This document shows positions 10,382-64,000 of a stretch of 64,000 nt of DNA, one piece after another. How positions within the stretch are numbered: the stretch's first letter is position 1; every line of letters begins with the position of its first letter. Source of the DNA: an uncultured Candidatus Saccharibacteria bacterium (GTDB lineage Bacteria; Patescibacteriota; Minisyncoccia; Phycocordibacterales; UBA2100); assembly GCA_964424265.1 (NCBI GenBank), contig CAYRHX010000004.1, forward strand, positions 4,081 through 68,080, written 5' to 3'. Below the pieces are notes generated by a model that worked only from the letters and a program-made list of their open reading frames with translations, ran no database searches and had not been told where the DNA came from. Made by a program: the position numbers and the translations under genes.

Positions 10382-10468
10382 TGAGGCATCGTACCTTAAA
10401 ATGAAATATTTCGCGATGCGTTGCGGTGTCGTACCTCGACGTACTGATGACCTCGGAAACCAAAAAAC

Positions 10469-10490
10469 AATCCCCCAGGAGGGGGATTGT
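10469..10490. terminator. Bidirectional intrinsic terminator hairpin (stem 9 bp, loop AGGA)
   Basis: caatccccc-agga-gggggattg perfect inverted repeat. A6 tract upstream (10463-10468) gives TTTTTTGG after the hairpin on the minus strand. T-rich tttcttctct follows on the plus strand. Confidence 0.7.
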
Positions 10491-10516
10491 TTCTTCTCTA
10501 GCTAGAGAAACACCAA

Positions 10517-10564
10517 CTATCGGCGCTTCTTTGCCTTTGCCTTTGCCTTCTTTTTCTTTGCCAT
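10517..10564 (-). CDS. Tiny lysine-rich ORF (MAKKKKAKAKAKKRR, 15 aa) overlapping a ctttgc x3 hexanucleotide repeat
   Basis: ATG at 10564, TAG at 10517-10519. About 25 nt upstream of the terminator hairpin on the minus strand. No obvious SD. May be a non-coding repeat. Confidence 0.2.
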   Translation of the reverse strand: MAKKKKAKAKAKKRR

Positions 10565-11022
10565 ATAAATATTTTTATTGAGTGCTAAGTTCGACCCGCA
10601 TGTGCGCAATAATGCGAAGATGCGACTACTGATTCATTATCACACCGAGGTGCTCGCAAAACTCAACACACACTCGTGAATGTGGATAACTTTTACACGA
10701 ATCGCGAGAAAACATTTCAAGAAATTTTTCTATCTTAAAATATATTTCTCCAATACTTCTTATGTCAGATACAATGTGGAGGACGGGTGCGAGCTCCAAA
10801 GTGAAAGTCTTATGTGAGTGCCGCCGCCCTCCACGCTATATCCCACCTGCATAAAGCGTATCACCCAGTCAAAACCATGCAAGGTATTCATAAACACAAA
10901 TCCCACCTTGCGGCGGGATCTGTGCGACTTTCAATCGAAACCACACTTCACACGAATGTGTGGCACTCACAGCGGCATTTTAACAAACCATATCATTCGC
11001 GCAATAGCCCTGCGGACTTCCC

Positions 11023-13410
11023 TTACAACTTCACGGTACCCGCTTTCACTTGCTGAATGAGGTCTGAGGCTTGCACAGCAGCTTCGGGAGAAATTTTGGA
11101 AGCAGCCTCAAGCGTCGAGATAGATTTAGCAATATTTCCCATTCCATAATACGCCGCCGCTAAAGTGAAATACCCCTGTGGATCGTTTGGTTGCGCTTTC
11201 ACGCGCCCCTCCCAGACGAGCGCAATCTTCGCATACTGCTTACCCGCCAGGTATGCTGATGTGATTCGTGGATCGGCAGCTTCGCCCGTCGCGATGATTG
11301 GCGCGAGGATGTCGTCGGCCAGCGCTCCGTTACCTGTCTGAATGAGGAGAGCTGCATACAAAATTCGTGCCTGAACATTCGAGGGCTCAAGCTCGTACGC
11401 AGTCTTCAGCGCATTCAATGCCTCGTTTACATCACCGCGAGCCTGTGCATTGAGAGCGATCTCAAAAAGGATCGTCTGTTTTTTTGGTGAATTGGCATGT
11501 GCGGCTTGCAATGCCTCCGCCCCCGCGGCGTAGTTTCCAAATGAATTGTAGACGATTCCCAGAAAGAGAGGGAAGCGTGCATCGAGGGGCGACTCGGTCT
11601 GCTGCAGCTTCATCTCTGAAACAGCGGTGTCGTAGAATGCCTGTTTTTGCGCCCGATCTATTTCTGCCATGCTCGCGATACGTGATGCTATTTGCGACAA
11701 CTGTTCACGCGCTTCTTGAGTGCCGAAAGCACCGACCGCAATTGCCGCTTTTATCATTTCCAAATTTTTGGCAACACCCCCTTGCTGTGGAATGATCGCC
11801 TGTATGAGTAATTTGTTTTGTGCAATCGCTCCCACGTTTACCCAATATAAAGCCCCACACACAACGGCCGTTGCTATACACACCACAATCCAGCCAGCCT
11901 TTCTGTTGAGATCTTTTTTCCAGAGTGGGGGCTCACCTGCTGCGGCGGCGCTGCGCCATGCAATGTACCCAAGGATGGTGCCAAACAAAATGTAGCTGGT
12001 AACATTGTCAAAAACAAAGAAATTATGTACGAAGTATCCTGCCAATAAGCCCGTCAAAATACTCGCCTCAACCCTTGAGAATGCCTTGCTCCACAGTGCC
12101 CAAAGCGCAGCCATAAAAATTGCGAGATAACTCAAAAGCCCTACAAAGCCGCCTGCAATAAGCCAATCGAAAATAATGTTGTGCACGCGGTCAAACCACG
12201 GCTCTTGCGCGTACATGCGTGGATCGTAATATTTATCAAACACCAAGGCGAAATTCTCCTGCCCCCATCCCAATACAGGGCGCTCTTTCACGCCTTCCCA
12301 TGCGATAGACCAATTTATGAGACGTGATTTTGAGGTACTCTCTGAAAGCGAGATCGTCGCGAGCCTGCTCAGAAACCCTATACTATTCAACCCTTGTGTA
12401 TTTCGTAACGCCAAGAAACCCCCGAAGGCGATGACAACGAAAGCGAGGTACCCTGCCGCAACGCGCCACGTTGTCGAAGATGCCCGCACGCCCCCAGTCG
12501 GGCGTTCAAAAAACGTGATGAGAAGCGCGGCAAGGACCGATCCACCAAATAGGCCGAGAATCGTTCCACGTGTACTTGTCTGCAATAACGCGACGGCATC
12601 AAGCATCAAAATCAGGGTAAGAACATGCGCTTGTCTCAGGAACATCAACGACATCACGATGACGTCAAGCGTCATGAGGCCCACGTACAGTGGCCACCCT
12701 GCCCCTGCCTCCTTGAAAATGCTCGCAAAAATACCTGAGACGACGATCAGAAATAAGGCTACCGCGATACGCTCTACCGAATTCCATTCTTTCTTATTTG
12801 ATTGATAAATAAGGAGCACCGCTATGAAAACATGAAAAAGCATGAAGGCAGCGAGGTAAATTGGATTGCCGAATGTACTATCGATGCGAGCCGAAAGACC
12901 TGCAGCAACGTTGTTGCCAGTCGCGACAATTCCAATCGTCTGTAACAACCCGTATATTGATATGCAGGAGGATAATGCTAAGAGGACTTGTAAGAATCGT
13001 CGCCAAAGTACCTCGCTTGTGATCATAGATGACACTACAAAGAGATACGCGAGGACGTGAGCGAGAGTCACCCACCCATCCATGCGTTCGTAGTTACTCC
13101 AAAGACTCTTAAAAGGATACGCCCCGAGTGTATCGGCAAGTCCAATGATGAGGACGAAAACGGTGAAAGCAGTGAGTACCCACGATCGACGGGGTCGGTA
13201 TGCGGAATTTAGTAAGGCGAGTGCAATCCAAGCACCCGCCATCATTTCCACAATAATTCGAAACGCGAAATTCTTACCCGTGATATACGGGAAGAAGAGA
13301 GTCCCATCGACAATGAACGGAACGAGCGCAAGGGAAAATATTGTCCCGAGGACGAAAAAACGAAGCGTCTTTTCTAGTATCATGCGCGGCATTCTACCAT
13401 ACAGCCCCAC
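11023..13410 (-). CDS. O-antigen ligase/polymerase-like (Wzy_C family) polytopic membrane protein with C-terminal TPR repeats
   Basis: 795 aa. About 12 TM helices. Wzy_C-like motif RIDSTFGNPIYLAAFM. C-terminal about 250 aa alanine-rich TPR-like repeats. Confidence 0.7.
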   Translation of the reverse strand: MGLYGRMPRMILEKTLRFFVLGTIFSLALVPFIVDGTLFFPYITGKNFAFRIIVEMMAGAWIALALLNSAYRPRRSWVLTAFTVFVLIIGLADTLGAYPFKSLWSNYERMDGWVTLAHVLAYLFVVSSMITSEVLWRRFLQVLLALSSCISIYGLLQTIGIVATGNNVAAGLSARIDSTFGNPIYLAAFMLFHVFIAVLLIYQSNKKEWNSVERIAVALFLIVVSGIFASIFKEAGAGWPLYVGLMTLDVIVMSLMFLRQAHVLTLILMLDAVALLQTSTRGTILGLFGGSVLAALLITFFERPTGGVRASSTTWRVAAGYLAFVVIAFGGFLALRNTQGLNSIGFLSRLATISLSESTSKSRLINWSIAWEGVKERPVLGWGQENFALVFDKYYDPRMYAQEPWFDRVHNIIFDWLIAGGFVGLLSYLAIFMAALWALWSKAFSRVEASILTGLLAGYFVHNFFVFDNVTSYILFGTILGYIAWRSAAAAGEPPLWKKDLNRKAGWIVVCIATAVVCGALYWVNVGAIAQNKLLIQAIIPQQGGVAKNLEMIKAAIAVGAFGTQEAREQLSQIASRIASMAEIDRAQKQAFYDTAVSEMKLQQTESPLDARFPLFLGIVYNSFGNYAAGAEALQAAHANSPKKQTILFEIALNAQARGDVNEALNALKTAYELEPSNVQARILYAALLIQTGNGALADDILAPIIATGEAADPRITSAYLAGKQYAKIALVWEGRVKAQPNDPQGYFTLAAAYYGMGNIAKSISTLEAASKISPEAAVQASDLIQQVKAGTVKL

Positions 13411-14316: not shown

Positions 14317-15366
14317 ATGAAAAAAGCACTCATTACGGGCATCACCGGGCAAGATGGTTCTTACCTCGCGGAACTTCTGATTGAAAAGGGATACGAAGTT
14401 CATGGCATTATCAGACGCTCAAGCTCGTTTAATACGGGACGAATCGATCATATCCTCAAAGATCCTCATGCAAAAAACAGGCGCCTCATTCTCCATTATG
14501 GAGATCTCTCAGATACGAGCAGCCTCAACCGTATTCTCGAAAGGGTGAAGCCAGCGGAGATCTACCACCTCGGCGCGCAAAGCCACGTGCGCGTCAGCTT
14601 CGACATACCTGAATATACGGCGGATGTCGATGCGATCGGCACTCTCCGTATGCTCGACGCAATTCGCGAGACCGGCATTAAAACGCGCTTCTACCAGGCT
14701 TCCTCGTCTGAAATGTTTGGCAAAGTCGCAGAAATTCCCCAACGAGAGACTACGCCGTTTCATCCCCGATCCCCCTATGGCTGTGCGAAAGTGTTCGGAT
14801 ACTGGATCGCGAAAAATTATCGCGAGAGCTACGGCCTCTTTGCGTGCAACGGAATTCTTTTCAACCACGAATCTCCCAGACGAGGCGAGACGTTTGTAAC
14901 GCGTAAGGTGACTGCTGGTCTCTCACGTATCAAACGAGGTCTGCAGGAAAAAATCTATTTGGGAAATCTCGATGCGAAGCGTGACTGGGGATATGCTAAA
15001 GACTACGTCGAGGGCATGTGGCTTATGCTGCAACAAGACCAGCCCGACGACTACGTACTCGCCACGGGCGAAACTCATTCTGTACGAGAACTTGTGGAGG
15101 TCGCGGGCGAGATCCTTGGCTTCGACATTGGCTGGCGAGGGAAGGGGCGTGCCGAAAAAGGATTCGATAAAAAAACAGGAAAGGTACTCATCGCGATTGA
15201 CCCTCACTACTACCGACCCGCAGAAGTTGACATTCTCCTGGGGGACGCACGTAAGGCTCGCAAGAAACTGGGCTGGAAACCGAAAGTAACGTTCAAAGAC
15301 CTCATCCGGATTATGGTAGAGTCAGACCTAGAGCTCATCGACAAAAATATAGGCATGGAGCATTGA
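14317..15366 (+). CDS. gmd: GDP-mannose 4,6-dehydratase
   Basis: 349 aa. [46 protein letters not shown] is the canonical Gmd N-terminus. Confidence 0.9.
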
Positions 15367-55197: not shown

Positions 55198-56430
55198 TTA
55201 TTCTTTACCGAGGACCACCCTAAGGCTTCGATATTTGTTTGCCGGGTCCCAAAAGAGATATGAATCGAGCCCAGCGTCTTCGTTTGCCTTAATCTGCTCT
55301 TGCACCATCGCTGGCGTGTAGGTAACGGGATAATCAAAGCTTTGGAGCCAGGGGCGTATTTTAGACGCAGGATACGCGGGCTTCGAGTACACCGCGGGAG
55401 TTGAGGTCCCAATACGTTCGTAGGCGAATGATGCGATCGGCGTTGTCGTTGCAAGGGTTCGTCTTACCGCCTCGACCATGGAAAGATGTACTATGTCGTA
55501 CGAATGGGAGTTCACATCCTTATACCCATTGAATCCGCTTGGATAGTGCGAGGGATACACCATTGGATCAATGAAGTCGAAGTACGGCAGTGCGCGCTCC
55601 AGTACTTGACCAATATTCAGATCATCTTGATTTGTGGCCGTCATCCCAAAGAGATCCGCCGATGTAACGACCCCTATAGGCTCGAGTTGCTCAGACAGAT
55701 ACTTGAAAAAACTCTCGAGTACTTCCGGCTTTGTGCGGCCATCGGCCCACGAATACACCGCCTCTTTCATCGGACCGTCTGAGGGAAAGCGGATGTAGTC
55801 AAAGTTGAGTTCATCAAAACCAATCGCGTACGATTCTTTGGCCAATTCCACGACGTTGTCCCAGTATGGTTTTGCCCCCACGTCTACAAACGCGAGACCT
55901 TTGTGATCCTTCCACACGCCTCCACCACTCTTTTGCACTGCTTCGTCAGGATGGACTTTTGTGTACGCGGGATTTTGAAACGTGGTGATGCGGCCGATGA
56001 CATAAATATCTTTTTCGTGCAGCTCTTTGATAAACGCCTTCATATCACGTGCCCCACAGGCATCCGACACATAGTCTTTGAGTGAAGGATTGTCTGTAGG
56101 AAACGCTATCTTTCCTGTGTAATCTCGAATATCGATAAGGAGGGCATTGATCTCCGTAGTGTCAACAAGCTCAATCAAATCTTTGCGAAACGAAGGCGTG
56201 CCAGCCGCGCATTGCGACATATACACCGCCTTCACTGTGGGCGGCGTAGCAAGATGCTGCACCTCTGGCTCTGTAGGTGTGATCACGCCATTTGAACCTA
56301 CGACTTGAGCAACATTGCCGCCACGAATATACGAAACTTTCGGCATAGCAGAAGCCACTGCGGCTACAACACCAACAGAAAGGAGAAACAGTACTCCGAG
56401 TATCAATATCCTACTGCGCCAATTCTTCAT
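55198..56430 (-). CDS. Secreted glycoside-hydrolase-like TIM-barrel protein (DUF4015/GHL-type)
   Basis: 410 aa. Signal/TM ILILGVLFLLSVGVVAAVASA. GFDELNFDYIRFP motif typical of this hypothetical GH-like family. Confidence 0.55.
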   Translation of the reverse strand: MKNWRSRILILGVLFLLSVGVVAAVASAMPKVSYIRGGNVAQVVGSNGVITPTEPEVQHLATPPTVKAVYMSQCAAGTPSFRKDLIELVDTTEINALLIDIRDYTGKIAFPTDNPSLKDYVSDACGARDMKAFIKELHEKDIYVIGRITTFQNPAYTKVHPDEAVQKSGGGVWKDHKGLAFVDVGAKPYWDNVVELAKESYAIGFDELNFDYIRFPSDGPMKEAVYSWADGRTKPEVLESFFKYLSEQLEPIGVVTSADLFGMTATNQDDLNIGQVLERALPYFDFIDPMVYPSHYPSGFNGYKDVNSHSYDIVHLSMVEAVRRTLATTTPIASFAYERIGTSTPAVYSKPAYPASKIRPWLQSFDYPVTYTPAMVQEQIKANEDAGLDSYLFWDPANKYRSLRVVLGKE

Positions 56431-56635
56431 GTCGGTGAGCGCTTTCGGCGTATGTCTCTCCAGTTCTTGAGGCAGCTGACTGTCCGCTGCCTCGTCTGCG
56501 CACCACGATCCCCAACGCCACTACCAAAATCCCTGCAATCAAGAAAAGCACGGTATCCCAGCTCTGTGGAAATCCCAAAAACGGCAACGTAGCCACAAAC
56601 GCCCCCAACGTCATAAGAAGTGTGTCGACTGTCAT
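56411..56635 (-). CDS. Small two-TM membrane protein
   Basis: 74 aa. LLMTLGAFVATLPFLGF and VLFLIAGILVVALGIVV. Start overlaps RT stop region. Confidence 0.4.
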   Translation of the reverse strand: MTVDTLLMTLGAFVATLPFLGFPQSWDTVLFLIAGILVVALGIVVRRRGSGQSAASRTGETYAESAHRHEELAQ

Positions 56636-57666
56636 GCGGAAATTATACCATTACTTTTTCCCACCTGTCTTTTGCTCAATAATGACAACAAATTCTCCGT
56701 CAGCATCCACGCATTCCCATGCTCCAACATACCCGCATAAGATTGTATCGTCGGGCTTTCTTTCTCAAGTCTTGAGACACGTTTCTGCATCCTCCTCTTC
56801 GTACTCGTGCGAAGAACGCGATGATCGGGAAAGTGCACCCACCCGAGGAAATCAATGCCGGATGCGAAGGTCTGAATGGATACCTTATCGGGATGCAACG
56901 CAAGGCTGAGCTTCGCATCAAGAAACGTCTGGATGCGCGGCAGCAGTACTTCGAGGTCCGAACGTGAGGCAGAGAGAATCACAAAATCATCCGCATACCG
57001 AACGTAATGGTTTATTCGAAGCCGATGCTTCACGAATTGGTCAAATTCATTCATGTATACGTTCACGAGCAGCTGCGAGGTGAGGTTGCCGAGAGGCAGC
57101 CCTTTCCCTTCTTTGGTCGAATGAAAGCTACCGATGACTTCGGCGACAAGGGCGCAGATCCTCTCGTCAGGAATATAACGACCTACGATGTCGTTAATGA
57201 TGCGGTGGTCAATCGAGGCGAAGAACTTCTTGATGTCGCACTTGAGTACCCAGCACGTGCGGGTGTGGTTGCGGGAGACTTTCGCGGCAAGCTGCATGAA
57301 GCGTCCCATCGCTCGATGTGTTCCCTTTCCCTTCCTACATGAATATGAATCTGCGATCCATGTGCGGTCGAAGAATGGGTACAGTTTCCTGTACAGAGCG
57401 TGATGCAATAGTCGATCACGAACTGTCGCCTTGTGGATGTCTCGGGGCTTCGGATCGCTGATCTTGAATGCCTCGTACAGCCCGTGACGATACTTCCCAC
57501 CCGTAAGGTCACAATGGAGTGCGAAGACGTTGCCCATCAACTTGTATTGAAACTCTTGCACGTCTTGCTTCTTGCGTTTGCCTCTCACAAACTCCTTCCA
57601 TGCTGCGAGGAGATTCTCTACGCAAATGATATCCTCGTAGGTATGAGTGAGTTGGATGCGAGCCAT
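56632..57666 (-). CDS. Diversity-generating retroelement reverse transcriptase
   Basis: 344 aa. DGR-diagnostic LPLGNLTSQLLVNVYM ((I/L)GxxxSQ replacing QGxxxSP). Catalytic YVRYADDFVIL. TR located 418 bp upstream on the same strand. Confidence 0.9.
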   Translation of the reverse strand: MARIQLTHTYEDIICVENLLAAWKEFVRGKRKKQDVQEFQYKLMGNVFALHCDLTGGKYRHGLYEAFKISDPKPRDIHKATVRDRLLHHALYRKLYPFFDRTWIADSYSCRKGKGTHRAMGRFMQLAAKVSRNHTRTCWVLKCDIKKFFASIDHRIINDIVGRYIPDERICALVAEVIGSFHSTKEGKGLPLGNLTSQLLVNVYMNEFDQFVKHRLRINHYVRYADDFVILSASRSDLEVLLPRIQTFLDAKLSLALHPDKVSIQTFASGIDFLGWVHFPDHRVLRTSTKRRMQKRVSRLEKESPTIQSYAGMLEHGNAWMLTENLLSLLSKRQVGKSNGIISA

Positions 57667-57722
57667 CCCAGAAACCGTACCCCCCCCCCGCCCGATTCCG
57701 CAACAACAATTCGTGCCCGTCG

Positions 57723-58069
57723 TATCTAAACTTAAAGACGCATATCTAATCTGGCAAAGCTTTCTTCCCCATGTCGCGAAAGCTCATCGGCAAACGATTG
57801 CACACAGGATCGATACAGAGCTTTTAGAAACGCTGTCGTCGAGTTTTAGAGCTGCTTATCTAAAAGATGAGCGGAAGATTGCCGCTATAGAAGCCGCTCT
57901 TGCACGACTTGATCTTGCAAAATTCTTTTTGATTATTGGTTGGGAAATGAAAATGTTGACGGATTCACAATACGCACAGATCTCAGAGTATCTCGTGGAG
58001 GCAAGCAAAATGCTGGTGGGATGGAAAAACTATCTTGAAAAGAAAACTCCCGCGCAACGAGAACGTTGA
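57723..58069 (+). CDS. avd: Avd-like accessory variability determinant (four-helix-bundle / 23S rRNA IVS-protein family)
   Basis: About 115 aa from GTG 57723 (alternative ATG at 57656 would overlap the RT start head-to-head). C-terminal ISEYLVEASKMLVGWKNYLEKK matches the Avd hallmark (E.G+mLGGW.k). Sits between RT and TR but on the opposite strand. Confidence 0.65.
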
Positions 58070-58083
58070 TGGGAGAAAGACGT

Positions 58084-58197
58084 GAGTTTCTGACAACAAG
58101 GCGATTCTCGCGATTCCAGACGTTGTCGTTGTCGAGCGAGTTCACGTTGCGGTTCCACTGCCTGCCATTGCGATTCGCGTAGGCCACGGAGACTTTT
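58084..58197 (-). repeat. DGR template repeat (TR)
   Basis: 114-bp alignment with 58461-58574. All 21 mismatches (18 in the 58084-58193 core, plus 58194-58196) are at T on the plus strand, i.e. A on the minus/TR-sense strand. No non-A substitutions. Encodes Asn-rich ...VSVAYANRNGRQWNRNVNSLDNDNVWNRENRLVVRNS. Confidence 0.9.
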
Positions 58198-58415
58198 GTA
58201 CTCTGCGCCATCTGTACCACCGCCCATTGAGTTCTCTCCAGGCTGTATCTGATGCGGGGTCGTGAGCCCTCGAGCGTAGAGCACCAACTCATTTCTTTTT
58301 TGCGGGAATTGCACCCGAAACCTCGCCATTCCAAGCCAAAATAATAATTTGGGCCGAAAATGCCAGCGTGTTCTAAATAATTGTACCCCACCCGCGCGAT
58401 TGCGGATGGGGTACG

Positions 58416-58460
58416 GGACGCTCGAAGAAAGTGACCAAGGGTCACAGGTTCGAAGCGTCC
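58416..58460. promoter_or_regulatory. Nested GC hairpin immediately 3' of VR (DGR hairpin/cruciform-like). Second hairpin at 58383-58414.
   Basis: gtgacc-aag-ggtcac (58431-58445) nested within ggacgctcgaag...cttcgaagcgtcc arms. Adjacent gtacccca...tggggtac hairpin (58383-58414). Target gene stop codon lies inside the hairpin. Confidence 0.6.
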
Positions 58461-59083
58461 GAGTTGCTGACAACAAGGCGATGCCCGCGATCCCAGACGC
58501 GGCCGTGGCCGAGCGAGTACACGTCGCGGAGCCACTGCCTGCCACCGCGACCCGCGTAGGCCACGGAGACCGATCCGTCTGCGTTTTCGACGGGAAAGAA
58601 GTTGGCGAATCCGTCGGTTCGGAAGCCGAAGTCCTCACCGCCCTCCTGCTTCTTGACGAACTTCTCCTGCTTCTCGATCATCAGATCGATTTTCTGGGAG
58701 GCCAGTGTATGGCCTCCCTGCTTGAGGCGATTGGCGATCTCCTCGATCGTCGCGGTTTCGGGCAGCTTGAGGAGCGCGCGGAACATTTGCGCGAACATCA
58801 TGTTTTGACGGAGTCCGAATGTGGTCACCGACGTCGACCCGAGCGTCGTCTGCTTGACCGCGACGAACAGCGAGGGCTTTGGTTCGGAAGCCGCTGCCGG
58901 ATCCTTCGGGGCAAGAAGCTGGTCGAAGGCAACGGCAAGCAGCTCTTGAAGCTCGGCCCCCCTGGTATTGCAAGTCTTGATAACCTGGGCCGGATCACGA
59001 CCCTCGACCACTTGGGCGAGCGCTTTCGCGACTGGCCCGATGACTTCCGCGAATTGCGGGTTAGTGAAGGCTGTTCCACCCAT
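58442..59083 (-). CDS. DGR target protein (variable C-terminal about 38 aa)
   Basis: 213 aa. VR occupies the last about 38 codons. GAGGG RBS-like motif 8 nt upstream of ATG. No obvious signal peptide. Confidence 0.8.
   Translation of the reverse strand: MGGTAFTNPQFAEVIGPVAKALAQVVEGRDPAQVIKTCNTRGAELQELLAVAFDQLLAPKDPAAASEPKPSLFVAVKQTTLGSTSVTTFGLRQNMMFAQMFRALLKLPETATIEEIANRLKQGGHTLASQKIDLMIEKQEKFVKKQEGGEDFGFRTDGFANFFPVENADGSVSVAYAGRGGRQWLRDVYSLGHGRVWDRGHRLVVSNSDASNL
58461..58574 (-). repeat. DGR variable repeat (VR) within 3' end of target gene
   Basis: Counterpart of the TR. Encodes ...VSVAYAGRGGRQWLRDVYSLGHGRVWDRGHRLVVSNS. AAC/AAT codons of the TR appear as GGT/CTC/GAC/TAC/CAC/CGC/GAT/CAT. 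Confidence 0.9.
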
Positions 59084-59254
59084 GGTGGCTGTTCCCTCTG
59101 ATGCTGCCGCATGATTGCGTTTAAGGCATTGTCGATTGACTTTGCCACAGCGGAAAAAGGCCTATTTTAAGCCGCTTTCCGCCATGGCAAAATCCACCTT
59201 TTCTCAAAGAACGAGGGTAAATTTATACCACGAGATTTAGGTATCTCCAAATTT

Positions 59255-59974
59255 TCATTTTGTTTTTGAGCGAGAGCGGATTTCAATGATGACAACAAAC
59301 TCACCCCGGACACCTTTCTTTTTCTCCAACCGATCTGCTAGTTCGAGCGGCGTACCGACGAGCACTTCTTCGTGCATTTTAGTGATCTCACGCGCAATGG
59401 TCACACGAGCGTTCGGAATGAATTTTTCGATTTCAGAAAGTAGCTTGATGACTCGGTGCGGTGACTCGTAGAGCACGACTGTATATTCTGAAGTTGCGAT
59501 CTTTTTGAGTGCGGTCTGCCTTCCCTTCTTATGCGGAAGAAATCCCAGAAACGTAAAAGCGTCTCCTGTCATTCCCGCAATCGAGAGCGCGGCGGTAAGT
59601 GCGGACGGTCCTGGGATCGCATCGATCTTTGCTTCTGGAAGATTCTCGCGGATATACGCGACCAATCGCGCACCCGGATCAGAGACCCCAGGCGTTCCAG
59701 CATCGGAAACGTACACTACGTGTTCTCCCTTCTCAAGCCGATCAGCAATTTCTTTTGCCTTCGTGACTTCGGTCGATGCGTCGAGTCGAAATACCGACGT
59801 GCGAAGTCCGTAATGCGCGAGAAGCTTCGCAATCACGCGCGTGTCTTCAGCATAAATCGCATGTGCCTCTTTCAGATTCCATAATCCTCGAAAGGTAATA
59901 TCTCCCATGTTGCCAATGGGCGTCGCAACTATCGAAAGAGTGCCGGTGGTCGAAGAATCGTGCTCGTTCATCAA
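59255..59974 (-). CDS. rsmI: 16S rRNA (cytidine1402-2'-O)-methyltransferase
   Basis: 239 aa. LSIVATPIGNMGDITFRGLWNLKEAHAIYAEDTR is the RsmI/tetrapyrrole-methylase-fold signature. Confidence 0.85.
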   Translation of the reverse strand: MMNEHDSSTTGTLSIVATPIGNMGDITFRGLWNLKEAHAIYAEDTRVIAKLLAHYGLRTSVFRLDASTEVTKAKEIADRLEKGEHVVYVSDAGTPGVSDPGARLVAYIRENLPEAKIDAIPGPSALTAALSIAGMTGDAFTFLGFLPHKKGRQTALKKIATSEYTVVLYESPHRVIKLLSEIEKFIPNARVTIAREITKMHEEVLVGTPLELADRLEKKKGVRGEFVVIIEIRSRSKTK

Positions 59975-59980
59975 TCCACA

Positions 59981-61264
59981 CTACTCCCCTACAATCTGTT
60001 CTGCAACCTTGTAGATGTCACCCGCACCCATCGTAATAACGAGAGCATCTGTTTCCTCGAGTAAGCGACCTCGAATCTCATCGAATGAATCGATAGCCTC
60101 TACATCTCCCCCTAGCTTCTGCGCCGCCTCTGCGAGAATGCGATGCGAGACAGTGGGATCGAGCGTCTCGCGTGCCGCATAAATAGGAGCAACAAACGCC
60201 ACGTCCGCTGTCGCAAGTGCACCGGCAAACTCGTGGAGCAGCGATTTGGTACGGCTATAGAGGTGCGGATGGAAGGCGACGACGATCTTTTTACCGGTGA
60301 ACCTTTCGCGTGCCGCTTCAATGGTCTTCGCAATCGCGGTGGGATGGTGCGCGTAGTCATCGTACACGAGAGCACCATTCGGCGTCTCCCCCTTATATTC
60401 AAATCGTCGCCACGAACCCTTAAAACCCTCAAGGGCGAGATCCGCGACATCGCCGGGAATATCTGGAAACGCCACTAATGCGGCAGTCTTCGCAGCCCGC
60501 GCGTTCATGCGATTAAACTCACCAATCTGAGAAAGCGCCGGCACGTCGATTCGAGTATGGTCGATGACTTTCGCACGAATATTTTTGAGAACGGGAGCAA
60601 TGTTCTCATCGTTTGGATCGGCGATAATACATCCGTGCGCGGGTATTTTCTCCGCGGCTGCTCTAAACGTCTCTTGCAATGCTGCGAGATCGGGGAAGTA
60701 ATCGGTATGGTCAAGCTCGATGTTGGTAATGACAAGAATTTCCGGTGAGAGCTTGAGGATGTGATCACGATACTCGCACGCCTCAACAACAAAAAGGTCG
60801 GACTGGCCCGGGAGAAAATTTGATCCAAAATCGCGCACGATGGAACCGACGATCGCGGTGGGTTCTTTCTTTGCCTGCGCCAAAATGAGGGCGAGCATGC
60901 CGGTCGTCGTTGTCTTCCCGTGCGTCCCGGCGACTGCAATCGTCCGCGCACCATCTGAAACCGCACCAAGCGCTTCAAAATAGGACATCTCAGGAATTCC
61001 CATCTCGCGCGCTCGCGTGCGCTCGACATTGCTCTCTGGTATCGCGTCGCTATATACAAGAAGCTCAGCGTCGGCGGGAATATTGCATTGATCGTGCCCT
61101 ATCACCACGTCAATCCCAACTTCCGCGAGCATGACAGTAACGGGCGATTCGTCTCGATCCGACCCACTGACCTTGCGCCCAGTGTGTTTCAAAAATTGCG
61201 CGAGCGCCGACATTCCAATGCCCCCGATGCCGACCATGTATATCGAATCAGGTACCTGCATCAT
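59981..61264 (-). CDS. murC: UDP-N-acetylmuramate--L-alanine ligase
   Basis: 427 aa. IYMVGIGGIGMSALAQFLKHTGRKVSGSD...AVAGTHGKTTTTGMLA. Confidence 0.9.
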   Translation of the reverse strand: MMQVPDSIYMVGIGGIGMSALAQFLKHTGRKVSGSDRDESPVTVMLAEVGIDVVIGHDQCNIPADAELLVYSDAIPESNVERTRAREMGIPEMSYFEALGAVSDGARTIAVAGTHGKTTTTGMLALILAQAKKEPTAIVGSIVRDFGSNFLPGQSDLFVVEACEYRDHILKLSPEILVITNIELDHTDYFPDLAALQETFRAAAEKIPAHGCIIADPNDENIAPVLKNIRAKVIDHTRIDVPALSQIGEFNRMNARAAKTAALVAFPDIPGDVADLALEGFKGSWRRFEYKGETPNGALVYDDYAHHPTAIAKTIEAARERFTGKKIVVAFHPHLYSRTKSLLHEFAGALATADVAFVAPIYAARETLDPTVSHRILAEAAQKLGGDVEAIDSFDEIRGRLLEETDALVITMGAGDIYKVAEQIVGE

Positions 61265-61306
61265 TTCAGACTATCATGTCCCGACGAAACGATATACAAT
61301 CGGACT

Positions 61307-61570
61307 ATGAGCAAAGGCGAGAAGAAACCAAAATTCAATTTCGAAGAATTGAAAGCAGCCGCCACGAGCGCGGACGCAAAAATCCGGAAAAGAGTTTTTG
61401 AAGAATACTTTGAACAATTCGAAGAATTCCCGTCCTACCTCTTCGACAACACCAACGGCATCGATAGTCGACTCCAGGAGACAATAGAGGATCTGAAAAA
61501 AGATCCGGATACGTCGAAAAGCCTGCAGAAAGGAATCCTCGCCCTCATGCAGCGTCTTCCATCGTCCTAA
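61307..61570 (+). CDS. Small hypothetical protein (87 aa, acidic/helical)
   Basis: ATG at 61307. MSKGEKKPKFNFEELKAAATSADAKIRKRVFEEYFEQFEEF... Convergent with murD. Confidence 0.4.
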   Translation: MSKGEKKPKFNFEELKAAATSADAKIRKRVFEEYFEQFEEFPSYLFDNTNGIDSRLQETIEDLKKDPDTSKSLQKGILALMQRLPSS

Positions 61571-62900
61571 CTATCCCCAAAAACTGGTCGTTGCGCTCGT
61601 ATTCGTTTTTGAACATTCCAAACGACGCAAAAGCCGGACTGAAGAGAATGACCTCGCTTCTTTTGGTAACGGCAACATCCATTGCCTGCTGCAAGCTCCC
61701 CACTTCCTCATACGCAATCCCCGCCTCTTGCAAAACACCGACCAGTCGTGCGGAACCTTTGTAATTCGAGTGCATGAGTACAATAACGTGCGAAACATTT
61801 TTTTTGATTTCTGAAACAAGCTCCCCGAGCGGCAAATCCTTCTCCGAACCGCCTACAATAAGCGTACAGCTTCCTCCCACCGCACGCAGTGCCGCAATGG
61901 TGGCCTCGGGCGTCGTTGCGTTGTTGTCGTTGTAAATCTTTCCCCCCCCAACCTCGCGGACGAGTTGCAGGCGGCCTTCAACGCCTTCAAACGATTCGAC
62001 TCCTGCGCGTATTTCGTCCTCTGACAAACCAAGTGCAGAAAGCGCGGCGGCTGCAAGCGATGCATTCTCGCGGTTATGTGTACCGATGATTTTCAAACTC
62101 CAATCTGCGGGTATCGGATCGGGGACGAGCGGCGCGACCTCCGGTCGCGCCGCCTCCACGCGCTCCCGGACAGACGACCCAACAAACAAAGAATCTCCGC
62201 TTTTCTGAAACCGAAAAATATTCGCCTTGTCTGCAAAATACGCGTCCATGCTCGGATAATAATTTTGATGGTCCGGCATGAGATTGGTAAACACGGCAAT
62301 ATCGGGACTAATTTTCAAATCACCAAACCCCTGCAACTGCCACGAATCAAGCTCAAGCACGCAGATGTCACCAGCTCGAACATCGGGAAGCATAGCGAGT
62401 GTGGACTTACCGCGAATGTTGCCACCGAGAAAGATTTTTCTTTCTCGCCCCGAGCCCGGTCGAGGGGCTGCGCTTTTCAGCGCATAAAAAATCGCGTGCG
62501 TAACTGTTGATTTCCCTCGGGTACCGGTAACGCCGACAATCTGCGCTCCTGCCTCTCTGGCATATTTTGCAAAAAGCGCTGTCGACATATACACGGGCAC
62601 CTCCGCATCGCGCGCGGCAGCAATTTCTGGAGAGTCGAGCGGTATTCCCGCCGCTTTCACCACCATTTCGGTGTCGATAAAATCTTCCTTCCGATGACCG
62701 CCAAGATGGAATGTGACGTTCGGATACTTTTTTAACTTCTCAACCGATTCCATCAGTTCGGCCTCGCTTTTTTTATCAGTGACCGTCAGCTCAGCACCGC
62801 ACTGCGCCAAAAACTCAGCGTCCCCCACCCCACGCCCTAGCAGCCCAAGCCCAAGTAAAGTGATGCGCTTGCCTTTAAAAGACTCAGTATACTCTTCCAT
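61545..62900 (-). CDS. murD: UDP-N-acetylmuramoylalanine--D-glutamate ligase
   Basis: 451 aa. KRITLLGLGLLGRGVGDAEFLAQCGAELTVTD...VGVTGTRGKSTVTHAI. Confidence 0.9.
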   Translation of the reverse strand: MEEYTESFKGKRITLLGLGLLGRGVGDAEFLAQCGAELTVTDKKSEAELMESVEKLKKYPNVTFHLGGHRKEDFIDTEMVVKAAGIPLDSPEIAAARDAEVPVYMSTALFAKYAREAGAQIVGVTGTRGKSTVTHAIFYALKSAAPRPGSGRERKIFLGGNIRGKSTLAMLPDVRAGDICVLELDSWQLQGFGDLKISPDIAVFTNLMPDHQNYYPSMDAYFADKANIFRFQKSGDSLFVGSSVRERVEAARPEVAPLVPDPIPADWSLKIIGTHNRENASLAAAALSALGLSEDEIRAGVESFEGVEGRLQLVREVGGGKIYNDNNATTPEATIAALRAVGGSCTLIVGGSEKDLPLGELVSEIKKNVSHVIVLMHSNYKGSARLVGVLQEAGIAYEEVGSLQQAMDVAVTKRSEVILFSPAFASFGMFKNEYERNDQFLGIVRTMEDAA

Positions 62901-62944
62901 AAAGCCACTATAACATTCGCTGCCTTACGATTATCTCCGAAAGT

Positions 62945-63092
62945 TTCCACGCATTCCCATGTTCCAACATCCCCAGATACGAAGCCACCACATTTCAATT
63001 TCCGGATGCGATGGCATGAATAGATACCTTTTAGCTTACGAATCCACTCATCCGAAATATAACGACCTACGATGTCGTTAATGACACAAAAC
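62945..63092 (-). pseudogene. Heavily deleted remnant of a second DGR-type reverse transcriptase (3' end fragments)
   Basis: Three collinear segments match the RT gene 3' region: 62945-62979 vs 56705-56739, 62996-63032 vs 56851-56887, 63053-63083 vs 57169-57199. About 500 bp of RT collapsed to about 150 bp. Confidence 0.6.
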
Positions 63093-63096
63093 GAAA

Positions 63097-63138
63097 ACCC
63101 TCGGGCCCAAAGTACAGAAGTACAGAGGGTCCGAGGGT
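63097..63138 (-). terminator. GC-rich hairpin (12-bp stem, 18-nt loop) immediately 3' of gene 63161-63931. Terminator and/or DGR-type VR-flanking hairpin.
   Basis: accctcgggccc...gggtccgagggt (one mismatch). On the minus strand it is followed by TTTCGTTTTGTG. Confidence 0.5.
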
Positions 63139-63160
63139 CAGACGCACGAAGGGCAGAAGT

Positions 63161-63931
63161 TCAGATTGCGAGGAGCGGGGAGACATTGGCGCGATAGCGA
63201 CCAAGGACGAGCCAGCCGCAGCCCCAGCACCACGAGCCGCCGCCGCGGCGGCGGTAGAGGCACAGGAAGTACCGGCGGCCGCCCGAGCTGCGCAGCGCGG
63301 TTGCGAATTCCATCCACGAAATTCCGTGCGTATCGTAGAGGAACCGCAATGTTACTTGACCCTTCTCGTCGAGGAGGGCTTGTCCCACCCCCGCGTCGAG
63401 GCGGATTCGCGGGTCGGCCTTCATCCGATCGAGCTTCTCCTCCCCTGTGATGCGAGTCTCTCCCTCCTTGAGAAAGTGCCCGAACCCGACTTTCGAGAAG
63501 TCGATTTCGGTCAAGCCGAGCGAGCGAGGATCTTGATCCTCGTCGCCCTCCAGACCGCCCCCATCGATCGGACCCCGCCAGATGCGCGATCCTTGACCAA
63601 GAAATCTGACGGGGTCGAAAGGTTTCGAGCGATCAATAACAAGGACGCTCGTGCCTTTTATCGTGAGGCGGCAGCCATTGTTGAGGAAGACAGTAAAGCG
63701 CCGCCCCAATTCTTCCCGCGATAACGCGATGACGTTTTGTTGGAGAGGATCGTGCTCAATCGACCCCCACTTGGTGTCGGTCGAGAAGCGCGCGATGAGT
63801 TCGCGGCTCTGGTCGCCTGATGCAACTTTCATCATTACCTCCATTTGCGCTGGACCATCCTCGCACGGGACTGTGCAAGGTAGGCTGGACGCACGCTGCG
63901 GCAACTTTTCACCGCAGGACAGAAAGGCCAC
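63161..63931 (-). CDS. Hypothetical protein with VR-like Gly/Arg/Trp-rich C-terminus (candidate second DGR target)
   Basis: 256 aa. C-terminus GGRRYFLCLYRRRGGGSWCWGCGWLVLGRYRANVSP resembles diversified C-type-lectin-fold VR tails (RGGSW....R.A.R...P). No cognate TR found in the window. Confidence 0.45.
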   Translation of the reverse strand: MAFLSCGEKLPQRASSLPCTVPCEDGPAQMEVMMKVASGDQSRELIARFSTDTKWGSIEHDPLQQNVIALSREELGRRFTVFLNNGCRLTIKGTSVLVIDRSKPFDPVRFLGQGSRIWRGPIDGGGLEGDEDQDPRSLGLTEIDFSKVGFGHFLKEGETRITGEEKLDRMKADPRIRLDAGVGQALLDEKGQVTLRFLYDTHGISWMEFATALRSSGGRRYFLCLYRRRGGGSWCWGCGWLVLGRYRANVSPLLAI

Positions 63932-64000
63932 AAAGCCCCTCTATTCTGCGGTGAATGCACGCTGGACTTTCAAAGAACAGTCCGAGATTATGCTATGAAA

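What the first reader, a model, noticed from the sequence alone, without database searches (positions are those of the whole stretch)
62945..63931. Second candidate DGR target with VR-like tail, flanking hairpin and a decayed second RT copy
Gene 63161-63931 (minus) ends in ...GGRRYFLCLYRRRGGGSWCWGCGWLVLGRYRANVSP. This is a Gly/Arg/Trp/Tyr-rich tail of the kind produced when AAC-rich templates are diversified. It is followed by a 12-bp-stem GC hairpin. Then come three collinear fragments (62945-63092) that match the 3' end of the intact RT gene at 56705-57200, with large internal deletions. This looks like a second DGR cassette whose RT, and presumably TR, have decayed. The VR-like tail does not match the TR at 58084-58197, so it cannot be serviced by that TR. 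The arrangement suggests DGR duplication followed by loss. A TR elsewhere in the genome is also possible.
Basis: partly seen in the sequence, partly recalled or inferred. Interest (0 to 1): 0.7.

Follow-up and report, generated by a model that had tools for sequence, protein, structure and literature searches.

The report
Orphaned DGR target beside decayed reverse transcriptase
A gene whose tip was once rewritten by a diversity-generating retroelement (DGR, a bacterial hypermutation system) has survived intact, while its own mutator has been deleted down to 121 matching bases; this is a clear but unsurprising example of such a system being lost.

Summary
The gene at 63161-63832 (minus strand; the GTG at 63931 is probably an over-extended start) belongs to an unnamed Patescibacteria protein family of 57 homologues.

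- **Family is a real DGR target.** In 10 family genes from 7 distinct sequences, the C-terminal ~120 nt pairs with a template repeat (TR) whose mismatches fall almost only at adenines. bAvd and RT genes lie downstream wherever the contig reaches that far.
- **The tail carries the DGR signature.** Against these foreign TRs, the window's tail (VR2, 63166-63295) differs at 22 of 30 TR-adenine positions but only 13 of 109 others (p = 1.6e-10).
- **The hairpin is probably a terminator.** The hairpin at 63097-63138 plus its U-run sits where homologues have theirs.
- **The RT remnant is real.** Two bases after the U-run, three collinear same-strand fragments (63042-63084, 63002-63030, 62934-62982) match RT1 codons 156-324 at 82-91% identity.
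- **No working parts remain nearby.** No TR2, bAvd or second RT exists in the 74 kb I could see, and TR1 cannot template VR2.

I conclude that this is a canonical target-TR-bAvd-RT cassette decayed in place, leaving a frozen variable protein. Duplication of RT1's lineage is plausible (33/43 residues against at most 28/43 in 119 relatives) but not proven. This is a known kind of event, of modest interest.

The parts
63161..63832 (-). Target-2 gene: an intact 223-aa member of an unnamed Patescibacteria DGR variable-protein family. The alternative start at 63844 gives 227 aa. The ORF listed from GTG 63931 is probably over-extended.
63166..63295 (-). VR2: a former variable region encoding LRSSGGRRYFLCLYRRRGGGSWCWGCGWLVLGRYRANVSPLL.
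   Evidence: Aligns to the L003 TR over 130 nt (E = 2e-23). 22/30 TR-adenine positions are changed against 13/109 others (Fisher p = 1.6e-10). The family alignment shows an invariant scaffold with hypervariable columns.
63237..63254 (-). (CGC)3(GGC)3 triplet block inside VR2 carrying one extra codon not found in any other family member or TR.
   Evidence: Column 268 of A1 is a gap in 42 of 43 proteins. A 3-nt gap appears in all six family TRs aligned to VR2.
63087..63138 (-). Hairpin (63097-63138) plus U-run (63087-63096): probable intrinsic terminator of target 2.
   Evidence: -30 kcal/mol, z = -4.4. A strong hairpin plus T-run occupies the same position in L001, L003a/b, L005, L007 and target 1, and the aligned downstream regions of L011-L013 show it too. 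The simple terminator scan did not call it, because the stem is interrupted.
63042..63084 (-). RT remnant, fragment 1, corresponding to RT1 codons 156-170 (INDIVGRYISDEW).
   Evidence: 91% identity over 43 nt to 57158-57200, E = 8e-12. Translation. tblastn.
63002..63030 (-). RT remnant, fragment 2, corresponding to RT1 codons ~261-269 (KVSIHAIAS). It is in a different frame from fragment 1.
   Evidence: 86% identity over 29 nt to 56858-56886, E = 3e-4..
62934..62982 (-). RT remnant, fragment 3, corresponding to RT1 codons 309-324 (SYLGMLEHGNAWKLSE). It ends 34 nt before the murD start codon at 62900.
   Evidence: 82% identity over 49 nt to 56694-56742, E = 5e-8. 77% identity to the L001/L002 RT. 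tblastn E = 7e-4.
56632..57666 (-). RT1, the intact DGR reverse transcriptase of the neighbouring cassette. It is the reference for, and closest known relative of, the remnant.
   Evidence: Pfam RVT_1, E = 3e-25. More than 8000 relatives, the nearest non-self at 73% identity. The remnant matches RT1 at 33/43 residues against at most 28/43 for 119 others.
57647..58069 (+). bAvd accessory gene of cassette 1. It is the only bAvd in the 74 kb inspected.
   Evidence: Pfam bAvd, E = 2e-6, below the curated cut-off. tblastn finds no second copy.
58084..58198 (-). TR1, the template repeat of cassette 1. It pairs with VR1 (58461-58575 in target 1, gene 58442-59083) and cannot template VR2.
   Evidence: 0-1 non-adenine and 5-9 adenine mismatches per 40-nt window against VR1. 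Against VR2, 50/100 non-adenine mismatches.

Best explanation
Target 2 is a variable protein of a Patescibacteria DGR whose own cassette has been deleted in place.

**Original state (inferred).** The locus had the family's standard layout on the minus strand: target gene with C-terminal VR, terminator, TR, bAvd on the opposite strand, then RT. RT and bAvd copied the TR RNA with errors at adenines, and the resulting cDNA overwrote VR2.

**Loss (shown by anatomy).**
- One deletion removed everything from 2 nt after the terminator's U-run to RT codon ~156. This took out the TR, bAvd and the RT 5' half, about 1.2 kb by comparison with cassette 1.
- Two further internal deletions, of about 260 and 96 nt, left 151 nt of frame-broken RT sequence, of which 121 nt still match RT1. 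It lies upstream of murD.

**Present state.** The target gene kept its ORF, ribosome-binding site and terminator, so it now probably encodes one fixed variant of a C-type-lectin-like binding protein.

**Relation to cassette 1.** The neighbouring intact cassette (RT1, bAvd, TR1, target 1) is a separate unit whose TR cannot template VR2. The lost RT was probably a sister of RT1.

**Shown versus inferred.** Shown: family membership, the adenine signature, the RT remnant, and the absence of TR, bAvd and RT in 74 kb. Inferred: the order and mechanism of the deletions, that the frozen protein is still useful, and the duplication.
For: 1. **Relatives are DGR targets.**
   - Ten family genes carry a downstream TR: L001, L002, L003a, L003b, L005-L007, L011, L013 and L016. 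They represent seven distinct sequences, because L001/L002 and L005/L006/L007 share one VR and TR each.
   - Nine of them show 0-1 non-adenine and 9-23 adenine mismatches over 120 nt. L016 shows 5 and 14.
   - bAvd on the opposite strand and a same-strand RT lie downstream wherever the contig reaches that far.
   - L012 also has a candidate TR, but its fixed 120-nt window ran past the end of the repeat (13 non-adenine mismatches), so I do not count it.
2. **Adenine signature.** VR2 aligns to the L003 TR with 22/30 adenine positions changed against 13/109 non-adenine positions, p = 1.6e-10. Between species, TRs differ at only 0-2 of their adenine positions, apart from one pair that differs at 10.
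3. **RT remnant.** Three collinear same-strand fragments lie downstream of the target, with E-values from 8e-12 to 3e-4. They translate to RT motifs in shifted frames.
4. **No working parts nearby.** No second TR, bAvd or RT was found in the window plus 9.8 kb beyond it, using three tests: an adenine-tolerant scan (window only), six family TRs as blastn queries, and tblastn with RT1 and bAvd.
5. **Unique extra codon in VR2.** It is absent from 42 of 43 family proteins and from all six TRs. A VR that is still overwritten from a standard-length TR would not keep it.
6. **The gene is otherwise full length** compared with its homologues.
7. **Not an assembly artefact.** The sequence is identical in four assemblies.
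8. **Precedent.** Degraded DGR cassettes and RT-less variable-protein paralogues have been described (PMC7517822; truncated RTs in PMC3521204).
Against: - Only about 74 kb of the genome was visible, so a remote TR2 cannot be excluded.
- In L003 the TR lies 4.2 kb from its targets. Three other family genes (L014, L015, L017) show no TR or RT within up to 8 kb on either side, so remote servicing may occur in this family.
- There are no population data. All available assemblies are clonal, and VR1 is equally invariant in them, so 'frozen' is not demonstrated.
- The extra codon could have been present in a lost TR2 as well.
- The non-adenine divergence of VR2 from foreign TRs (12%) is no greater than the divergence between TRs, so it gives no evidence of drift after the loss.
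Confidence: 0.8

Rival explanations
1. VR2 is still diversified. A second template repeat (TR2) lies outside the 74 kb inspected, and the intact RT1/bAvd pair uses it in trans. The remnant would then simply be a redundant RT that could be lost.
For: - Remote targets occur in this family: in L003 the TR lies 4.2 kb from two targets.
- RT1 and the lost RT are close relatives, so RT1 might accept the same RNA.
- The 3' end of VR2 (GTCTCCCCGCTCCTCGCAA) still matches the family's conserved VR/TR 3' end.
- The gene is intact.
Against: - No TR2 was found in the window or in the 9.8 kb beyond it, either by the adenine-tolerant scan of the window or with six family TRs as blastn queries.
- In every intact family locus, the TR lies immediately beside bAvd and RT. 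RT1 has only TR1 beside it.
- VR2 carries an extra codon found in no family TR.
Confidence: 0.07
2. Decay is real, but the two cassettes were acquired independently rather than by duplication within the genome. The remnant resembles RT1 only because both belong to the same large Patescibacteria RT clade.
For: - The two cassettes have different target families (BLASTP finds no similarity) and different TRs.
- The clade is very large, with more than 8000 RTs at E < 1e-30. Only the 119 most RT1-like members were compared, so an RT closer to the remnant could exist among those not listed.
- The remnant carries family-consensus residues where RT1 differs (SYLGML, AWKL).
- 14% nucleotide divergence is substantial.
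Against: - The remnant shares 33/43 residues with RT1, against at most 28/43 and a median of 23 for the 119 nearest clade members. The shared residues include the rare E in MLEHGNAW.
- RTs linked to target-2-type genes elsewhere are more distant: L001 at 77% over 47 nt, and only in one fragment.
- TR1 and target-2-type TRs share a 33-nt core at 82% identity. A profile comparison aligns the two targets VR on VR, weakly (E = 0.035).
Confidence: 0.3
3. The RT-like fragments and the tail are unrelated coincidences. The tail would be a low-complexity Gly/Arg/Trp C-terminus, and the fragments would be chance matches or an assembly chimera.
For: - The fragments are short (29-49 nt).
- The tail is compositionally biased.
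- The simple terminator scan did not call the hairpin.
Against: - BLAST E-values are as low as 8e-12, and the fragments are collinear and on the same strand.
- The locus is identical in four assemblies.
- The tail aligns column by column with a family of proven VRs.
Confidence: 0.01

Closest known systems
Diversity-generating retroelements of the Patescibacteria/CPR clade (DGR clade 2 of Roux et al. 2021, PMC8144416), with the layout target - TR - bAvd (opposite strand) - RT
   Same: - The target gene belongs to a family that such cassettes service in other genomes.
- The VR sits at the C-terminus and shows the adenine-specific pattern.
- The RT remnant lies downstream on the same strand.
- The neighbouring cassette 1 in the window is an intact example.
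   Different: Here the TR and bAvd are absent, and the RT is reduced to 151 nt in three frame-shifted pieces. The element cannot work as a DGR on its own.
Degraded or partial DGRs described in cyanobacteria: Nostoc all3226, a variable-protein paralogue with remnant TR-VR homology but no RT, and the RT-only cassette of Anabaena sp. 90 (Vallota-Eastman et al. 2020, PMC7517822). Also truncated DGR RTs (Schillinger et al. 2012, PMC3521204).
   Same: Loss of the diversification machinery with retention of a formerly diversified gene. Those authors proposed that the components are removed once a good variant has been selected.
   Different: - Here both sides of the event are visible at one locus: an intact target and a recognisable RT fossil.
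- The setting is a streamlined Patescibacteria genome.
- An intact sister cassette lies 4-5 kb away.
C-type-lectin-fold DGR variable proteins (Bordetella phage Mtd; Treponema denticola TvpA, PDB 2y3c)
   Different: - There is no Pfam match.
- I saw no N-terminal hydrophobic segment when reading the sequence, but no signal-peptide predictor was run.
- The N-terminal helical region has no match.

Membership tests
Functional DGR cassette | An intact reverse transcriptase of the DGR clade encoded next to the TR | tested here: not met
   Only three fragments of 43, 29 and 49 nt remain, in different frames. The sole intact RT in the 74 kb is RT1 at 56632-57666.
Functional DGR cassette | A TR/VR pair in the same genome whose mismatches fall at TR adenines | tested here: not met
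   No template for VR2 was found in the window by the adenine-tolerant scan, or in the window plus 9.8 kb beyond it with six family TRs as blastn queries. The rest of the genome could not be searched.
Functional DGR cassette | An accessory protein (Avd/bAvd) gene adjacent | tested here: not met
   tblastn with bAvd1 finds only 57647-58069, which belongs to cassette 1.
Functional DGR cassette | A conserved 3' boundary of the VR (IMH, the homing signal at the VR's 3' end) able to direct cDNA homing | tested here: inconclusive
   The VR2 3' end GTCTCCCCGCTCCTCGCAA matches the L003 VR/TR end at 18 of 19 positions. Function cannot be tested in silico. The small stem-loop found just 3' of the stop codon in the relatives folded is not recognisable here.
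DGR variable-protein (target) family represented by P0001-P0057 | Full-length sequence homology to family members | tested here: met
   57 homologues. Identity of 37-69% over 63-100% of the query for most of them, with E-values down to 1e-91.
DGR variable-protein (target) family represented by P0001-P0057 | Family members are demonstrably templated by a TR with adenine-specific mismatches | tested here: met
   - Ten genes (seven distinct sequences) have a TR. Nine show 0-1 non-adenine and 9-23 adenine mismatches over 120 nt, and L016 shows 5 and 14.
- L012 has a candidate TR, but its fixed window overran the repeat (13 non-adenine mismatches).
- Three further genes (L014, L015, L017) have no TR within the flanks fetched.
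DGR variable-protein (target) family represented by P0001-P0057 | The window's own tail shows past adenine-directed diversification | tested here: met
   Against the L003 TR, 22/30 adenine positions differ compared with 13/109 others, Fisher p = 1.6e-10. The variable residues fall in the family's hypervariable columns.
C-type-lectin-fold variable proteins | CLec fold, with the VR forming the exposed binding face | tested here: inconclusive
   [not shown]
Rho-independent terminator | A GC-rich hairpin directly followed by a U-run, downstream of a stop codon | tested here: met
   -30 kcal/mol, z = -4.4, followed by UUUUCGUUUU. The same arrangement occurs in five homologous loci and in target 1. 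The strict pattern scan is negative because of bulges in the stem. Termination itself has not been tested.

The most novel reading that the evidence does not exclude
The intact RT1/bAvd pair still rewrites VR2 in trans, from a stand-alone TR2 elsewhere in the genome. The organism would then run one reverse transcriptase with two unlinked templates for two unrelated target families, and the decayed RT would be a redundancy that was discarded after the two cassettes began sharing machinery.
Probability: 0.05. Interest if true: 0.6.

Novelty: new member of a known kind. Interest (0 to 1): 0.33.

Why it matters
**What it shows.**
- This locus gives a clean, datable example of how a DGR is lost. 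The diversified gene, its ribosome-binding site and its terminator are kept. The TR, bAvd and most of the RT are removed by a few deletions, one of which starts 2 nt after the terminator's U-run.
- This fits the published idea that a host can lock in a useful variant by discarding the mutator (PMC7517822).
- It also shows that surveys that start from RT genes will miss formerly diversified proteins like this one.

**What it could be used for.**
- The pairing with an intact sister cassette 4-5 kb away makes the locus a natural control for read-mapping studies of DGR activity, because VR1 and VR2 sit in the same cells.
- The target family has no Pfam model and only a faint C-type-lectin signal, so it may deserve a family description.

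None of this changes how DGRs are understood.

Tried and rejected
1. **Genome-contig scans.** The scan with P0001 matched patterns but confirmed no relatives. The source genome is apparently not in that collection, so it could not be used to hunt for TR2.
2. **Search with the remnant peptides.** I concatenated them to find RTs closer to the remnant than RT1. No candidate shared enough 5-residue words. The 'closest to RT1' result therefore rests only on the 119 RTs ranked by similarity to RT1.
3. **Population variation.** The 90% clusters of target 2 and target 1 each contain a single VR sequence, and L004, L009 and L010 are 100% identical to the window. This says nothing about activity, because VR1 is equally invariant.
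4. **Rfam.** A search over 56000-64000 at E <= 1 found nothing.
5. **Pfam.** Neither target matched any family.
6. **Direct BLASTP of target 1 against target 2.** No similarity was found. Only a weak profile alignment exists (E = 0.035).
7. **Hairpin as a DGR target-recognition cruciform.** Considered but not favoured, because the U-run and its conserved position fit a terminator.
8. **Post-loss drift in VR2.** I looked at non-adenine positions, but 12% divergence is within the range seen between TRs of different species.

Full report
**What is in the sequence**

On the minus strand the order is: an ORF ending at 63161, a hairpin, a short non-coding stretch, then murD starting at 62900.

- **The ORF.** It can be read from GTG 63931. 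However, a GGAGGT motif lies a few bases upstream of ATG 63835/63832, and all homologues begin MK..S..Q. The real product is therefore 223-227 aa, from 63832 or 63844 to 63161.
- **The tail.** It reads ...LRSSGGRRYFLCLYRRRGGGSWCWGCGWLVLGRYRANVSPLLAI.
- **The hairpin.** It occupies 63097-63138, with 19-nt arms at 79% complementarity. As RNA it folds at -30 kcal/mol (z = -4.4, 0 of 200 shuffles as stable) and is followed directly by UUUUCGUUUU.
- **The RT matches.** Two bases after that U-run the first of three blastn matches to the intact RT gene begins:
  - 63042-63084 to 57158-57200: 91%, E = 8e-12.
  - 63002-63030 to 56858-56886: 86%, E = 3e-4.
  - 62934-62982 to 56694-56742: 82%, E = 5e-8.

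The three matches are collinear and on the same strand as RT1 and target 2. In RT1's frame they read INDIVGRYISDEW, KVSIHAIAS and SYLGMLEHGNAWKLSE, but they lie in different frames of the remnant. Compared with RT1, 271 nt are replaced by 11 nt, and 115 nt by 19 nt.

**The neighbouring cassette**

The window holds an intact DGR:
- RT1 at 56632-57666 (-), Pfam RVT_1, E = 3e-25.
- bAvd at 57647-58069 (+).
- TR1 at 58084-58198 (-).
- Target 1 at 58442-59083 (-), with VR1 at 58461-58575.

TR1 and VR1 differ at 0-1 non-adenine and 5-9 adenine positions per 40-nt window. This also served as the positive control for my template scan.

**What target 2 is**

Pfam gives nothing. A search of 5.8 billion proteins gives 57 homologues, where named from Patescibacteria (Kaiserbacteria, Falkowbacteria). 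Their alignment has an invariant C-terminal scaffold, LR.S.G.RYFL.L.R...GSW.W.Y.WL...R.A..VSP.LAS, interrupted by columns carrying six or more different residues.

I fetched DNA for 14 family genes other than the window's own.

- **Ten have a downstream TR.** These are L001, L002, L003a, L003b, L005-L007, L011, L013 and L016. They represent seven distinct sequences, because L001/L002 and L005/L006/L007 share one VR and TR each.
  - Nine show 0-1 non-adenine and 9-23 adenine mismatches over 120 nt. L016 shows 5 and 14.
  - bAvd on the opposite strand and an RT on the target's strand follow wherever the contig reaches that far. This is the same layout as cassette 1 in the window.
- **L012** also has a candidate TR, but my fixed 120-nt window overran the end of the repeat (13 non-adenine mismatches), so I do not count it.
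- **L014, L015 and L017** have no TR (see below).

The family is therefore a genuine DGR target family.

The family TRs are conserved between species. They differ at 10-28 of about 110 non-adenine positions. Their roughly 30 adenines differ at only 0-2 positions, apart from one pair that differs at 10. The window's tail aligns to them over 130 nt (L003 TR, E = 2e-23). It differs at 22 of 30 adenine positions but at only 13 of 109 others (Fisher p = 1.6e-10). VR2 (63166-63295) thus bears the mark of past adenine mutagenesis.

**Structure**

- An AlphaFold2 model built on the family alignment is confident (pLDDT 92).
- Foldseek finds nothing significant in the PDB.

I take this as weak support for a CLec-like fold, not proof.

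**What is missing**

In the window, the 260 nt between target 2 and murD hold only the hairpin and the RT pieces.

- An adenine-tolerant scan of the whole window found no template for VR2.
- Locus L009 is the same strain and extends 9.8 kb beyond the window end (murI and biosynthetic genes).
- With six family TRs as blastn queries against the window plus L009, the only target-2-type match is VR2 itself.
- tblastn with RT1 and bAvd finds only cassette 1 and the remnant.
- TR1 differs from VR2 at 50 of 100 non-adenine positions, so it cannot template it.

VR2 also carries one extra codon inside a (CGC)3(GGC)3 block at 63237-63254. This codon is absent from 42 of 43 family proteins and from all six TRs. 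A VR still being overwritten from a standard-length TR would not keep it. It may be a slippage event after the loss, or it may have been present in the lost TR2.

**The hairpin**

A strong GC hairpin followed by a T-run sits about 25-50 nt after the stop codon in L001, both L003 genes, L005, L007 and target 1. The aligned downstream regions of L011-L013 show it too. I read it as the target gene's intrinsic terminator, retained with the gene. The strict pattern scanner did not call it, because the stem is interrupted.

The relatives folded also have a smaller stem-loop immediately 3' of the stop codon. This is not recognisable in the window.

**Most likely history**

A canonical target-TR-bAvd-RT cassette sat between murI and murD.

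- One deletion, starting 2 nt after the terminator's U-run, removed the TR, bAvd and the first ~155 RT codons.
- Two more deletions shortened the rest.
- The target gene stayed full length.

The sequence of events is inferred from anatomy, not observed.

**Duplication or independent acquisition?**

In favour of duplication:
- RT1 belongs to a clade of more than 8000 RTs, whose nearest non-self members are 73% identical to it.
- Over the 43 residues the remnant encodes, RT1 matches 33. The best of the 119 next-closest RTs matches 28, and the median is 23. The E in MLEHGNAW is shared only with RT1 among the 25 RTs most similar to the remnant that were printed.
- RTs attached to target-2-type genes elsewhere are more distant.
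- Mismatches between the remnant and RT1 fall 6, 2 and 9 at codon positions 1, 2 and 3.
- TR1 shares a 33-nt core (82%) with target-2-type TRs.
- A profile comparison aligns the two targets VR on VR at E = 0.035.

Against it:
- The 119 comparison RTs were ranked by similarity to RT1, not to the remnant.
- My attempt to search with the remnant peptides failed.

This favours a common origin within the lineage, but duplication is plausible rather than shown.

**Caveats**

- Three other family genes (L014, L015, L017) have no TR, RT or bAvd within up to 8 kb on either side. In L003 the TR lies 4.2 kb from its targets. RT-less or remotely served copies therefore occur in this family, and a remote TR2 cannot be ruled out here.
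- All assemblies carrying this locus are clonal, and VR1 is as invariant as VR2 in them. There is thus no direct evidence on current activity.

**Comparison with the literature**

- Patescibacteria DGRs form their own clade (PMC8144416, PMC11661182).
- Truncated RTs have been reported (PMC3521204).
- Degraded cassettes and RT-less variable-protein paralogues have been reported too, together with the suggestion that the machinery is removed once a good variant is fixed (PMC7517822).

This locus is a clear new instance of that known phenomenon. It is not a new kind of system.

Noticed in passing
L014:3792-4463, L015:4050-4601, L017:8001-8630: Three other members of the target-2 family have VR-like tails but no TR, bAvd or RT within up to 8 kb on either side, and no RT remnant by tblastn. 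The spacer downstream of the L014 gene keeps a 20-60 nt piece of the pre-TR spacer seen in intact cassettes. Orphaned or remotely served copies may be common in this family.
   Followed up: partly
L003:10001-16331: Two tandem paralogous targets (10001-10630 and 10919-11560) are both templated by a single TR at 14813-14942. That TR lies 4.2 kb downstream of the first target's VR, beyond TetR and short-chain dehydrogenase genes. The whole region sits beside integrase, TrwB and relaxase-like genes, so this DGR appears to ride on a mobile element.
   Followed up: partly
L013:2056-2201: This cassette's TR has only 18-22 adenines where other family TRs have 26-31. Several AAC codons have become GAC, GGC or AGC. 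The template seems to be losing its mutable sites.
   Followed up: no
L001:~10705-10725, and the equivalent positions in L005, L011, L012 and L013: Directly after the target gene's terminator, intact cassettes share the motif TTTTGATATGATA(C/T)GC (L012 and L013 vary slightly). This could be a -10-like promoter element for the TR RNA. The window lacks it, and the RT remnant begins there instead.
   Followed up: no
window 58126-58158, and target 1 at 58442-59083: TR1 shares a 33-nt core (82%...AACTCGCTCGACAACGAC...) with target-2-type TRs. A profile comparison aligns target 1 to the target-2 family with VR on VR (E = 0.035). The two target families may share a distant common variable domain.
   Followed up: partly
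window 58350-59100 and 63150-63600: Both DGR target genes are richer in G+C (0.58-0.65) than the surrounding genes and RT1/bAvd (0.43-0.55). Only part of this is explained by adenine replacement in the VRs.
   Followed up: no
[not shown]
   Followed up: partly
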